Positions 10,260 to 61,183 of a DNA stretch of 64,000 bases are shown here, piece by piece (positions within the stretch are counted from its first letter, which is position 1; each line of letters begins with the position of its first letter). Where the stretch lies: contig JARDVH010000169.1 in the NCBI GenBank assembly GCA_030324005.1, positions 12,586,198 through 12,650,197 on the forward strand. The letters are read 5' to 3'. The position numbers and the translations under genes were made by a program. The notes under the pieces were generated by a model, which ran no database searches, was not told the origin of the DNA, and saw only the letters and a list, made by a program, of their open reading frames with translations. The DNA comes from Negaprion brevirostris. Lineage: Eukaryota.

Positions 10260-10458
10260 GATGTGGATATGCCGGCGTTGGACTGGGGTAAACACAGTAA
10301 AAAGTCTGACAACACCAGGTTTTAGTCCAGCCGATTTATTTCATAGTAAACTCACTAGCTTTCGAGGGGATTCCCTCTTCTTCAGGTGAATGGAGAGTTC
10401 TGGCCTCAGACAGAGCGTATAAAGCACAGACAGTTTAGAGATTACTGATTAGAATGCG
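10260..10458 (-). mobile_element. Penelope-like pseudo-LTR
   Basis: gatgtggatatgccggcgttggactggggtaaacacagtaa...acaacaccagg is homologous to 12603-12712 and 55557-55734, and contains a hammerhead motif. Confidence 0.7.
10351..10390 (-). ncRNA. Minimal type-I hammerhead ribozyme motif
   Basis: Minus strand UUCAC-CUGAAGA-A-GAGGG-AAUC-CCCUC-GAAA-GC-UA^GUGAG: core boxes CUGANGA and GAAA, 5-bp stem II, palindromic AGCU stem III, CUA cleavage triplet, stem I UCAC/GUGA. Confidence 0.75.
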
Positions 10459-10496: not shown

Positions 10497-10581
10497 GTGT
10501 GGCGACTAGGGGATTTTCATAGTAACTTCATTGCAGTGTTAATGTAAGCCTACTTGTGACATTAATAAATAAACTTTAAAC
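10497..10581 (+). mobile_element. 3' tail of alternative-tail V-SINE
   Basis: gtgtggcgactagggattttcatagtaacttcattgcagtgttaatgtaagcctacttgtgacattaataaataaac matches 8017-8097. Confidence 0.75.
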
Positions 10582-11879
10582 TGCTTGTGGTATCTGAAAA
10601 CCAAAATTACCTGAAATCCAAATGCAATCAGCCTCAGGGGTTTCAGATAAAGGATACTCGAAGTGTATAATAATCTGGCAGGGGAAATTAGTAACTTATG
10701 GGGAGTTGTAAAGCACTTGCTTCAACACAGTCTTCTCTTCTGTTGTATGTAATACTTAAAGTAAGTTTTCATTTTGAATTTATGTAGGTTTATAGGGAAA
10801 GATAATCATCTCCCTCTCATTTGAATGCTCTCATTATGAAAAATGACAGATCAGATTGTCATGGCTAATTCCAGATAAGGTTGTGTTTCTTGTCATAAAA
10901 TGACACATTTTAAATCTGACCTTGAACAGTTATTTTAAATAAGTGAAAATAGCTGTTAAAATATACTGTAAGAAAAAAGGACTTGAAGAAACGTGATCCA
11001 GGTTTTAGAATACTGCAAGATATGGATAATATAAATACTGCTAATTTATAAATAATTGTCAAACCAAAAGACAGAAATACAAGGTTGCAAAATCTTAAAT
11101 AAGAGTGTATTTGTGCTTTAATGTCCAAAGCACACTAAAGGCATTATAACATTGGTGTATAAATTCATTCCTTTCATTTCTTTAAAAAGATAGAAATATA
11201 GTTTGTTTTATATCTTGGCTTATTTTTATTTCCCTTTGGGGAATAGTGGCGAAATGTTGGCAGGATTAACAAGTTGATTATCAGCCTGGTTGAACAAGTC
11301 CAGGAGTGTGACTAAACCTGTAGCTTGGACTCAGAGGCAGTGGTGCTACCTACTAATAAATCACAAAACCTTCAATATAAAATAGTTCGCTTCTTCTATG
11401 ACTGCGGAAGTGCCAATTAGAATTGAATAATATAGATAGTTTATAATTTTACATCGATCTGTCAGATTAGTGTGACATTACCTTTTATTTGGTTTAGGGA
11501 AGAGTGGGTGAGGAATGCAAGAAGGAACATCAAAGTTTTACTAGTTGGAGCTTTTTCATCTCACACTGAATCCAATAAAGTATAAATCTTTTATGATCTG
11601 CTGCAAGGAATATGGAATCTGAGTGGGTTTCTCCCATTTCATACATTTTAATATCTTTGTGCGCAGACAGTTACAGTAGTAGTGCCCAGAGTCACCAGAG
11701 TGATGTCATGATAGGATTATATCTTAAACAATCAGAAGGCTGTATGGTAATATGTGATTGTGAATAGATGTCTGGCTCATTTGCAGGCGATATATAGCAC
11801 ATATACTCAAATTGTTACTCTGAAACATAAAATCCATTTCTGTTTACAATCTACTTGCCCTGAATGATATATTCTAAAA

Positions 11880-12360: not shown

Positions 12361-13543
12361 TGTGTTGGGACATCAAGTACATAATTCATATGTTTTAGAA
12401 TATAACTTAGTTTTCGGAATTAAAGTGTTAAATGTAAGATAAGTGGAAACACTGATTGAGAAATGGGTACACAACCCCTGAGGTAAATACAATTCAAATC
12501 AACTTGAGTTAATTACAGTTAAAAGCTAATTTATGTTTTTATCTTACAAGAACAAAAGTAGAACTTAAACAATGGATGATTAGTCCTGAGGTTCTTAATG
12601 GAGTACGAAGTCTCACAATACCAGGTTTAAGTCCAACTGGTTAGACTTAAACCTGGTGTTGTAAGACTTCTTACTGTGTTTACCCCAGTCCAACGCTGGC
12701 ATCTCTACATCATTCTTAATGGAACCAGAAGGCCTACCCTTACTTCACTAAACCATTTAAATTATTTATGTAGTTCCCAGATGAATGAAGTGAAATGCTA
12801 GCAACTCTGGGTGAGAGGGCCATAAAACTTCATTGGAGATGTATATTACTTATAAGTCAAATCAAAGAGTTATGTTGAAGGTAGAATTAGTTAATTTATA
12901 TGGTTTTGGAACATCGCAAGTATGCCACCTTATCATGGAGATGGGCTATCAGGATTCTTTTGTTTAATTTATCTGGATGTTTCACAGAAGGCAGTTGTAG
13001 TTTTAGTCTTATGTAGATCACAGCTCACTTAGAGTTTGAGAGGAAAGGAGAGCCTAGCTTGAAGCTGTAGGAAGAAAACTACAGTGAGACCCGTAGTGAA
13101 AACAAGCCATCAGATTAAAGAATGTAATGAAGCTTAAGTTTGAACTGAGAAGCTCACAGTCTTTGATTTTGAAAGAAAATTGGAGAGTAGCTTAGAATTC
13201 CCATGACGTTTCATACTTTGGACATTAGCTGGAACACTGAAGAGAAATCAGAATTAATTTTGCAGGACTGTGGCATACCTTTGGTTCCAGGAAAAGTGAA
13301 TTAACCCATAAGATTTCACACATTAAAACAACCCTTGGGGAGAAGTAAATGTAAAACTGGATTCTTAGAATATGTAGTTATAGACTATAGTGCTAAATTG
13401 ATTGCTTTCCTTATTTTTTGTTCATATGTAGAATAATGTTTTCATGTGTAAACATGAAATCTTGTGATGTAATTTCTTTCATATGATTGCTGGATGTTTG
13501 AACTCCTCTTTAAATGTTAGCTGTCTCTACAGAGATCATAACA
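12361..13543 (+). mobile_element. Possible solo LTR (contains the Penelope hairpin)
   Basis: Begins TG, ends ...gatcataaca, flanked by cctg/cttg; composition is LTR-like. No coding support. Confidence 0.25.
12603..12712 (+). mobile_element. Short Penelope-like insertion with inverted 5' part and 11-bp TSD
   Basis: TSD TTCTTAATGGA at 12592-12602 and 12713-12723; arms gaagtctcacaataccaggtttaagtccaac / gttagacttaaacctggtgttgtaagacttc. Confidence 0.8.
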
Positions 13544-55556: not shown

Positions 55557-55734
55557 GGTGTGGAGATGCCGGCGTTGGACTGGGGTTGGCACAGTAAGAA
55601 GTCTCTCAACACCAGGTTAAAGTCCAACAGGTTTGTTTGGTATCACAAACTTTCTGAGCACTGCTCCTTCATCAGGAAGCTCATGACACCAAATAAACCT
55701 GTTGGACTTTAACCTGGTGTTGTGAGACTTCTTA
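55557..55734 (-). mobile_element. Penelope-like pseudo-LTR with inverted segment, 10-bp TSD and decayed hammerhead
   Basis: TSD CAGTTTACAG at 55547-55556 and 55735-55744; arms 55595-55650 vs 55677-55734; minus strand CUGAUGA-A-GGAGC-AGU-GCUCA-GAAA at about 55643-55676. Confidence 0.8.
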
Positions 55735-56795
55735 CAGTTTACAGAGGCCATTCCCTGATACAGTTTTGTCGACGTATGGCTATGGCATGAGTACTTTAGA
55801 CCAGAAATTTTGAGCGACGGAATTGTTTTCAAAGTTATTGTTTTTTAGAATTTTAATGAAATCTAGATAATATGAGGGACTCACTGTGGAAAAGCACCAC
55901 CTGATTTGTTAATGAGCATTAAATTCAGAAGGTCTCATACTACATTCTGATTTCTGCAACAGCAANNNNNNNNNNNNNNNNNNNNNNNNNNNNNNNNNNN
56001 NNNNNNNNNNNNNNNNNNNNNNNNNNNNNNNNNNNNNNNNNNNNNNNNNNNNNNNNNNNNNNNNNNNNNNNNNNNNNNNNNNNNNNNNNNNNNNNNNNNN
56101 NNNNNNNNNNNNNNNNNNNNNNNNNNNNNNNNNNNNNNNNNNNNNNNNNNNNNNNNNNNNNNNNNNNNNNNNNNNNNNNNNNNNNNNNNNNNNNNNNNNN
56201 NNNNNNNNNNNNNNNNNNNNNNNNNNNNNNNNNNNNNNNNNNNNNNNNNNNNNNNNNNNNNNNNNNNNNNNNNNNNNNNNNNNNNNNNNNNNNNNNNNNN
56301 NNNNNNNNNNNNNNNNNNNNNNNNNNNNNNNNNNNNNNNNNNNNNNNNNNNNNNNNNNNNNNNNNNNNNNNNNNNNNNNNNNNNNNNNNNNNNNNNNNNN
56401 NNNNNNNNNNNNNNNNNNNNNNNNNNNNNNNNNNNNNNNNNNNNNNNNNNNNNNNNNNNNNNNNNNNNNNNNNNNNNNNNNNNNNNNNNNNNNNNNNNNN
56501 NNNNNNNNNNNNNNNNNNNNNNNNNNNNNNNNNNNNNNNNNNNNNNNNNNNNNNNNNNNNNNNNNNNNNNNNNNNNNNNNNNNNNNNNNNNNNNNNNNNN
56601 NNNNNNNNNNNNNNNNNNNNNNNNNNNNNNNNNNNNNNNNNNNNNNNNNNNNNNNNNNNNNNNNNNNNNNNNNNNNNNNNNNNNNNNNNNNNNNNNNNNN
56701 NNNNNNNNNNNNNNNNNNNNNNNNNNNNNNNNNNNNNNNNNNNNNNNNNNNNNNNNNNNNNNNNNNNNNNNNNNNNNNNNNNNNNNNNNNNNNNT

Positions 56796-59900: not shown

Positions 59901-61103
59901 NNNNNNNNNNNNNNNNNNNNNNNNNNNNNGAAAGTAAGTCAAAACAATTTATGAAAATTCTGATTTATTTGGCCTCACAACTCCTGGATAGTAAAAGGAA
60001 AGATGAATCAAAGTTCTTTCTGTAGGTTCCTGGAATGTACATGTACGGATGCTTGGTGAGGTCTAGATAGGTCTTGGTTGTGATACCTCCACAGCCAAAT
60101 AGCCCAGGGACATTCACTGCAGAGACTCGATTGTGAATAAAGGTGACTTGGTGCCAAAAAAGACCATTCATTGAAACTGCACCTCAACAAGGAATCAACG
60201 CACTCGCATGAGGAACAGAGAAAACCATGTTTTAAAACTGAACGCTTTGATTTAATACATATGAATTTACTTTGTACTCATTGCCGGAATAAGGAATATA
60301 AAAAAAAGGTGCTAAAATTTGATTTTTTTCTAAGTTAAGTGTTGTCTCCCCGACCCCTGCTGTACTCCCACTCCTCCCCCCCTCTCCCCCACATTCCACC
60401 CCTTCCACACTGGGATAAAATTCAAAATTACCTCTAACCTGTCCAAAATCTGTCAATGAGTCGGAAATTTCAAGGGGATTTTTCACTCCCTCCCCATCAG
60501 TTTATTTCTAAGCCAGCATTCTAGCTTCTCTGCTCACATTTTGTTGCATTTCAGGCGTTTGTCCCTCGTGGACTTGCATCCGGGAAGGTTGATTGAGGCT
60601 ACTCAACTGCTTTACACTTTGTACGTTAAATAGGCATCAGAAAATTGCCTTTTATCTCTTCTGTGTGGACTAAATTCAAACTCTGAGCTGAAAGGAAATG
60701 TTCTAACCCACTGTATCACCCAATTGCCTGATGGTCAGATTTTATCTGCGGGCTCTGTTCCTTGCGATAACCTTATCTAAAGGCGTTGTCTTTCCACGGT
60801 CCACTGTGACAGGCCAGCTAATTGAAGTGCTTAGTGTGTCAGAGGGAACAACTTTATTCCCAGTTTAACCATAAAGTGATATAGCCTGCTTTGGGATGGA
60901 GTTTTCCACCTTCCAAGCAGGAAGATACTTAACCTGCCCCAGTGATTATCTTCATTTGAGGCACAGAATAGTGCTGAGTTTCGGTTTGCATGGAGATAGG
61001 TACAGCCGAATGGGCATCCTGGTAAAGAACAATGTATAAGTTTGTTTTCTTTAAATGAAACTAGAAGACAATATTAATTGTCGTTTTTTTGTGTGTGTTG
61101 TAG

Positions 61104-61183
61104 GTGTTTTTGCAAAATGTCGCTATGTCTATCATGGAAGGCACTCAGAGGGGAACAGATTCATTCGTGATGACCAGCTTTAA
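61104..61183 (+). CDS. LRMDA: Terminal coding exon of LRMDA (leucine-rich melanocyte differentiation-associated, C10orf11)
   Basis: T/GT-rich tract then AG acceptor at 61102-61103. Reading GT|GTT TTT GCA... gives (G)[25 protein letters not shown] with TAA at 61181-61183. This matches the human LRMDA C-terminus as I recall it ([26 protein letters not shown]), including the stop position; phase-1 intron. Confidence 0.93.

What the first reader, a model, noticed from the sequence alone, without database searches (positions are those of the whole stretch)
10351..10390. Intact minimal hammerhead ribozyme motif in a shark Penelope-like repeat
The minus strand reads UUCAC CUGAAGA A GAGGG AAUC CCCUC GAAA GC UA^GUGAG. 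All core nucleotides are present, stems I and II pair, and stem III is reduced to palindromic AGCU. This is the form known from Penelope-associated type-I hammerheads, which are thought to cleave as dimers. The homologous copy at 55643-55676 has a different stem II (GGAGC-AGU-GCUCA) in the same context, i.e. sequence change with pairing largely kept, and both have an extra A after A9. Predicted cut is between plus-strand 10355 and 10356. It is antisense to LRMDA, so it would not cut the host pre-mRNA. PLE hammerheads are established in other animals; I cannot tell whether this shark family has been described.
Basis: partly seen in the sequence, partly recalled or inferred. Interest (0 to 1): 0.7.

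Follow-up and report, generated by a model that had tools for sequence, protein, structure and literature searches.

The report
Shark Penelope retrotransposon end with hammerhead
This is a real, intact copy of the tiny hammerhead self-cutting-RNA motif already known from Penelope-like jumping genes, one of about ten thousand such copies in this shark genome; this lone copy is likely an inactive, recent insertion, and the only fresh hint is that the family's copies stop where the element's RNA may begin.

Summary
The motif is there as described (window 10350-10391, minus strand), the only strict hit in the window against 0.017 expected. It sits in the terminal repeat (pLTR) of a Penelope-like retroelement: the same repeat follows a reverse-transcriptase/GIY-YIG reading frame and precedes its start codon elsewhere in the genome. 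An exact core pattern occurs 9,899 times (control 0). Stem II covaries across subfamilies, so source elements were selected for the fold; inserted copies decay (12 of 50 keep the core). The second copy cited is a decayed member of another subfamily. The motif lies antisense in the last LRMDA intron and is probably absent from two relatives. This is the minimal hammerhead of Cervera and De la Pena 2014; I found no paper on the shark family. Cleavage is untested. Side result: copy 5' ends pile up at the 5' arm of stem I, 31-32 nt behind a TATA-like box, which may mark the RNA start; a cap test failed. The scan noted this kind of family in other sharks before.

The parts
10350..10391 (-). Type I minimal hammerhead motif: stem I 6 bp, core CUGAAGA, extra A after A9, stem II 5 bp with 4-nt loop, GAAA, palindromic AGCU, H17 = A; predicted cut 10356/10355
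   Evidence: covariation
10260..10458 (-). Visible part of a Penelope-like element end (3' UTR / pLTR plus tail); its 5' part runs into the assembly gap after 10458
   Evidence: 93-96% identical to 39 other places; 3' end fixed at 10260 by loose-end pile-ups in 4 runs
10416..10423 (-). TATA-like box (one private change in this copy), first T 32 nt before the A at 10391 that starts stem I; candidate pLTR promoter (inferred)
   Evidence: best TATAWAWR match at -31/-32 in 47 of 71 long copies; private change seen table 3
10335..10340 (-). AATAAA hexamer after the hammerhead, shared by the family; poly(A)-signal-like (role not tested)
   Evidence: part of the tail pattern with 20,603 exact matches
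10260..10295 (-). Optional 36-nt tail between the two preferred 3' ends of the family; ends just before the start codon of the element's frame
   Evidence: 47 of 92 uncensored copies end at 10300-10291 equivalents, 28 at 10266-10260; ATG follows
55559..55738 (.). Second locus: decayed hammerhead copy of another subfamily (55559-55676, minus) in an inverted arrangement with a second arm (about 55672-55738)
   Evidence: (I12)
12602..12713 (.). Third locus: head-to-head tail fragments of the same family, no hammerhead
61104..61183 (+). Last coding exon of LRMDA (host gene; motif lies antisense in the intron before it)

Best explanation
The motif is the minimal hammerhead in the terminal repeat of a high-copy Penelope-like retroelement, likely of the Neptune clade; the fold was kept in the source elements, and this lone copy is likely a recent, inert insertion that would not cut LRMDA RNA. 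Shown: the order frame end - 3' UTR - hammerhead - tail - start codon; about 10^4 intact cores; compensatory stem II changes between subfamilies; decay of inserted copies. Inferred: in a source element arranged pLTR-frame-pLTR the RNA carries two hammerheads, whose AGCU palindromes would pair to supply stem III (a single copy cannot close it over a 2-nt loop), perhaps helped by the element's protein; cutting is probably weak, and most genomic copies were made from uncut RNA by reverse transcription primed at the tail.
For: Sequence and chance. Element identity; linker C-x4-C-xx-C fits the CX2-5CxxC linker of Neptune/Nematis in PMC8557442 (passages). Copy number: 9,899 core matches and 20,603 tail matches, controls 0. 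Covariation in 92 copies not selected for the inside of stem II: pair 2 G-C 64 / A-U 21, pair 3 G-C 39 / A-U 36 / G-U 12, pair 4 G-C 59 / A-U 8; 0 of 2000 shuffles reach each; 227 of 276 Watson-Crick cells against 144 of 276, 86 of 276 and 99 of 184 when slid; by eye at least three separate double changes on a tree of 71 flanks. Decay: 12 of 50 tail-selected copies keep the whole core, with C11.1 to T in 16 and G12 to A in 10, the CpG pattern. Young age: three private changes in about 199 nt and flank contigs of two related organisms that stop matching at 10260. Uncut template: 50 of 100 tail-selected copies span the whole motif, in line with PMC11167929 (parts 1-2 read).
Against: No cleavage was measured. 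Rfam's hammerhead models do not match. The modelled intermolecular dimer (-26.5 kcal/mol) is no better than two monomers (2 x -13.2; 2 x -14.2 for the best fold) and a competing dimer reaches -31.2. Pfam hits on this genome's own fragments are under the curated cut-offs (GIY-YIG 22.0 of 22.6 bits in 1 of 3; RVT_1 21.1 of 29.6 in 2 of 7). No full-length element was recovered and no RT tree was built, so the clade rests on one motif. The shuffle control ignores relatedness. The empty site in relatives is not bridged by any contig, and the gap after 10458 could hide a tandem partner.
Confidence: 0.85

Rival explanations
1. The motif is conserved as a structure or protein-binding signal at the RNA 5' end, and cleavage is incidental or absent in vivo.
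For: Most copies derive from uncut RNA; dimer energy is marginal; PMC11167929 reports that hammerhead mutants do not affect insertion in vitro and that no RNA reads begin or end at the cut; PMC4209133 leaves functions other than cleavage open.
Against: Across subfamilies the majority base is the catalytic one at every core position while position 7 and position 17 vary as chemistry allows (N7 T 27, C 19, A 3, G 1; H17 T 22, C 12, A 12, G 4 of 50). The related lizard motif does cleave when the protein is added.
Confidence: 0.25
2. The short copies are a non-autonomous retrozyme (tandem, circular-RNA) family rather than truncated Penelope ends.
For: Many copies are only about 100-140 nt and start at stem I; one same-strand pair 152 nt apart is listed; the bioRxiv preprint 10.64898/2026.07.22.740005 reports retrozymes in its one chondrichthyan.
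Against: Copies end at the two tail positions, not at the cut site; 5' ends are spread and continue into the reading frame; this copy is not visibly tandem.
Confidence: 0.07
3. This copy is a domesticated regulatory ribozyme of the LRMDA locus.
For: It is intact and intronic.
Against: Antisense to LRMDA; one of about 10^4 intact cores; intactness is expected for a young copy (three private changes); probably absent from two relatives about 2% diverged in the flank.
Confidence: 0.02
4. The hammerhead look is chance.
For: No Rfam match; weak folding z-scores with flanks.
Against: 0.017 expected per window; compensatory changes; position in the pLTR as published.
Confidence: 0.01

Closest known systems
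Minimal hammerheads (min-HHR) in pLTRs of metazoan Penelope-like elements (Cervera and De la Pena 2014, PMC4209133; parts 1-2 of 4 and supplement file 2 part 2 read; file 1 not held)
   Same: Type I layout, extra base after A9, G10.1-C11.1, palindrome at 15.2-16.2, no true stem III, thousands of mostly solo copies (about 9,000 in Xenopus tropicalis, 4,000 in coelacanth). The turtle row of Fig. S3 has the same AGCU palindrome.
   Different: No cartilaginous fish in the text or supplement parts seen. Stem II is 3-5 bp here, shorter than in many published rows.
Poseidon element PAc of Anolis carolinensis (Frangieh et al. 2024, PMC11167929; parts 1-2 of 4 read)
   Same: Hammerhead in the pLTR near the start codon; two 3' ends bounding a 30-40 nt tail; uncut RNA as main template.
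   Different: In PAc the frame starts in stem II and the tail lies inside the frame; here the start codon follows the tail, and the protein has the Neptune/Nematis-type cysteine linker.
Neptune-clade EN+ Penelope-like elements (Craig et al. 2021, PMC8557442; passages read)
   Same: RT followed by CX2-5CxxC linker and C-terminal GIY-YIG domain; partial tandems, inverted 5'-truncated copies, tail.
   Different: Clade not tested by tree; Nematis shares the linker.
Animal non-LTR retrozymes (bioRxiv 10.64898/2026.07.22.740005; parts 2-3 of 5 and passages read; supplements closed)
   Same: Hammerhead-bearing short repeats related to pLTRs; reported in one chondrichthyan.
   Different: Defined by tandem units; this copy and most sampled copies are solo or inverted.

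Membership tests
Minimal hammerhead of Penelope-like elements | Core CUGANGA, GAAA, UH all present | tested here: met
Minimal hammerhead of Penelope-like elements | Extra base between A9 and 10.1; G10.1-C11.1 pair | tested here: met
   A in 46 of 50 and G10.1 in 45 of 50 tail-selected copies
Minimal hammerhead of Penelope-like elements | Palindromic 15.1-16.1 in place of stem III | tested here: met
   AGCU; G 48, C 44, U 46 of 50
Minimal hammerhead of Penelope-like elements | Compensatory changes in stem II across families | tested here: met
Minimal hammerhead of Penelope-like elements | Position in the pLTR of a Penelope-like element | tested here: met
Minimal hammerhead of Penelope-like elements | Self-cleavage as dimer or with protein help | not testable with these tools
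   only energies computed; genomic footprint inconclusive
EN+ Penelope-like element | Reverse transcriptase followed by a C-terminal GIY-YIG domain in one frame | tested here: met
   seen in overlapping broken copies and in one 643-aa shark homolog; Pfam hits on own fragments below cut-off
EN+ Penelope-like element | pLTR in front of the frame, inverted 5'-truncated copies, 30-40 nt tail | tested here: met
   L288, L307
Neptune clade | CX2-5CxxC linker between RT and endonuclease | tested here: met
   shared with Nematis
Neptune clade | RT phylogeny | not tested
   no named reference sequences of the clades were in hand
Non-LTR retrozyme | Two or more tandem units with hammerheads | tested here: inconclusive
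   none visible at this locus, but an assembly gap follows 10458; one same-strand pair elsewhere
Rfam hammerhead families | Covariance-model match | tested here: not met
Domesticated intronic hammerhead | Same insertion conserved across species, sense to the host gene | tested here: not met
   antisense; flank contigs of two relatives leave the window sequence at 10260, empty site inferred, not bridged

The most novel reading that the evidence does not exclude
The element's RNA starts at the 5' arm of stem I, driven by a TATA-initiator promoter in the upstream pLTR. The hammerhead is then the first 42 nt of the mRNA, and cutting would remove the cap with about 36 nt: a built-in decapping switch that takes the RNA out of translation, licensed only when two pLTRs are in one transcript. 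The many 100-140 nt copies would be run-off cDNAs primed at the 5' tail, so the genome records the RNA start thousands of times.
Probability: 0.3. Interest if true: 0.6.

Novelty: new member of a known kind. Interest (0 to 1): 0.27.

Why it matters
As a single motif it is ordinary: a known ribozyme form in a known class of element, here extended to a shark family that I did not find described. Its use is as a data set. The role of these hammerheads is an open question in the papers read, and a family with about 10^4 intact cores, several covarying subfamilies and sharp copy ends lets one test where the RNA starts and whether cut RNA is ever copied.

Tried and rejected
Cap signature: G at the junction before the stem I A was 52 of the 67 purine cases among the first 100 listed (hand count), but the control junction inside the core gave 67 of 100 (hand count; Fisher p 0.16); not diagnostic, and in several loci the G is explained by the flank or the inverted arm. 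Cleavage footprint (lead from earlier scan notes): among the first 100 of 1,251 matches, 17 begin at the cut or one base before it against 4-6 at neighbouring positions, but 14 of the 16 one-base-early cases carry A17, so the excess is off by one and cannot be credited to cleavage (hand count; p about 0.014 under a rough flat rate); the tail-selected sample shows no peak there. Strand bias in LRMDA introns: intact motifs 4 antisense, 0 sense in 604,748 non-N bases (p 0.125); motif-bearing arms 15 against 6 after dropping one false call at window 55691 (p 0.078); inconclusive, and the AATAAA would predict the same. Expression: no RNA holder listed. Rfam: no hammerhead match. PDB sequence search with P0006: 0 matches. 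Look-up of earlier findings by sequence: nothing. A protein search in a wrong frame found nothing. Literature: searches gave no paper on hammerheads of shark Penelope elements or on copy ends at stem I; Repbase/Dfam could not be searched, and closed supplements (preprint tables, file 1 of PMC4209133) may hold the family.

Full report
Observation. The minus strand over 10391-10350 holds a complete type I minimal hammerhead: stem I of 6 bp (one G-U), CUGAAGA, an extra A, stem II of 5 bp with a 4-nt loop, GAAA, GC, UA, and the 3' arm of stem I. The predicted cut lies between 10356 and 10355. My descriptor finds this as the only strict hit in the window; 60 simulated windows give 0.017 on average. 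The 42 nt fold into stems I and II (z -2.84), while longer stretches do not stand out. Rfam finds no hammerhead family.

The repeat. The motif lies in a repeat visible from 10458 (edge of an assembly gap) to 10260, 93-96% identical to the other 39 best places scored. Walking upstream in other copies reaches the end of a reading frame with a weak GIY-YIG match (1 of 3 proteins, 22.0 bits, cut-off 22.6) and then reverse-transcriptase motifs (2 of 7 pieces match RVT_1 below cut-off). All 40 homologs found are unnamed or from sharks where a species is given; one of 643 aa passes RVT_1 and ends with 80% identity to the frame in L063, which runs into the same UTR as the window copy. Downstream, the tail is followed by the start codon, and L288 and L307 show UTR, hammerhead and tail in front of the frame. 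Copies have two 3' ends about 36 nt apart (47 and 28 of 92 uncensored) and are often inverted. These are the pLTR, tail and inversion features of Penelope-like elements in PMC8557442 (passages) and PMC11167929 (parts 1-2). The linker C-x4-C-xx-C points to Neptune or Nematis; no tree was built.

Selection on the fold. An exact core pattern has 9,899 matches and an exact tail pattern 20,603, both with 0 in the reversed control. In 92 copies taken from the first 100 listed core matches plus their neighbours, the inside of stem II was not selected, yet pair 2 is G-C 64 or A-U 21, pair 3 G-C 39, A-U 36 or G-U 12, pair 4 G-C 59 or A-U 8; no shuffle of 2000 reaches these, slid controls are far lower, and the sixth position shows no signal. 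Shuffles ignore kinship, but a tree of 71 flanks shows by eye at least three separate double changes. Inserted copies are not maintained: of 50 tail-selected copies that span the motif (two of them poorly aligned), 12 keep the whole core and 4 also keep both stems and AGCU; the commonest losses are CpG changes at C11.1 and G12. So selection acted on source elements.

This copy. LRMDA exons lie on the + strand 5.3 kb before the window and at 61103, so the motif is antisense in the last intron. It carries three private changes, none in the hammerhead (table 3). Single-copy flank contigs of two related organisms match up to 10260 and then run on for 57-60 unlike letters, while the run with no differences continues into the element; an empty site is the likely reading but no contig bridges it. 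Intact motifs in 605 kb of LRMDA introns are 4 antisense, 0 sense, which is not significant.

Mechanism. Shown: anatomy, copy number, covariation, decay. Inferred: a monomer cannot close stem III over two bases, so two hammerheads in one pLTR-frame-pLTR transcript would pair through AGCU, as proposed in PMC4209133, where a monomer did not cut and multimers cut weakly. The computed dimer is no more stable than two monomers, which fits weak or protein-assisted cutting as reported for the lizard element. Half of the tail-selected copies span the uncut motif, so the usual template was uncut RNA.

Side result. Copy 5' ends are not uniform. In 100 tail-selected copies (24 censored) the rate per 100 nt is 1.0 inside the motif, 9.8 at 3-12 nt before C3 (31 events), 1.3 just above and 0.27 further up; in the 92 core-selected copies the zone is wider, 4-17 nt before C3 (44 events). 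A TATA-like box lies 31-32 nt before the first A of stem I in 47 of 71 long copies. This suggests that the RNA starts at stem I and that short copies are run-off products. Against it: the cap-G test failed its control, the zone is broad, a small hairpin just upstream or microhomology in inversions could also stop synthesis, and the Drosophila Penelope promoter is TATA-less and starts upstream of an intron (PMC2377424, passages). I formed this idea before reading the scan's notes; similar unchecked notes exist for other sharks and are not independent support. Their cleavage-footprint lead gave a weak excess that is one base off here.

Verdict. Real and correctly identified, of a known kind; no paper on the shark family was found in the searches listed, with repeat databases and some supplements out of reach. 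Interest 0.27.

Noticed in passing
L389 (G000:C1:26224804 and 26224956): Two intact cores on the same strand 152 nt apart: a natural tandem pair suited to a dimer cleavage test.
   Followed up: no
young lineage of the window copy, e.g. L002-L060: Stem-loop II comes in six or more discrete versions with length changes, all paired, while the flanks differ by only a few percent; the loop seems to change faster than the UTR around it.
   Followed up: partly
window 10383-10391, + strand: The antisense strand of the core and stem I reads as a 5' splice-site-like CAG/GTGAAT (CAG/GTGAGT in other subfamilies), so antisense copies put a cryptic donor into host introns; consensus recalled, not tested.
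   Followed up: no
window 10276-10335, - strand: The tail region folds into a long stem that encloses the first 3' end of the family; a candidate binding site for the reverse transcriptase.
   Followed up: no
window 10497-10582, + strand: 3' end of another very abundant repeat directly behind the gap, present in related organisms too (D16, 61).
   Followed up: no
L324, L327, L328: Short copies flanked by direct repeats of about 9-13 nt that look like target-site duplications.
   Followed up: no
G000:C169:11765988-12647377: LRMDA coding exons span about 880 kb in this shark.
   Followed up: no
many loci, e.g. L007, L010, L017, L018: Assembly gaps sit right beside these elements very often (24 of 100 tail-selected 5' ends censored by a gap or by the end of the reference), so tandem and full-length copies are probably under-assembled.
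   Followed up: partly
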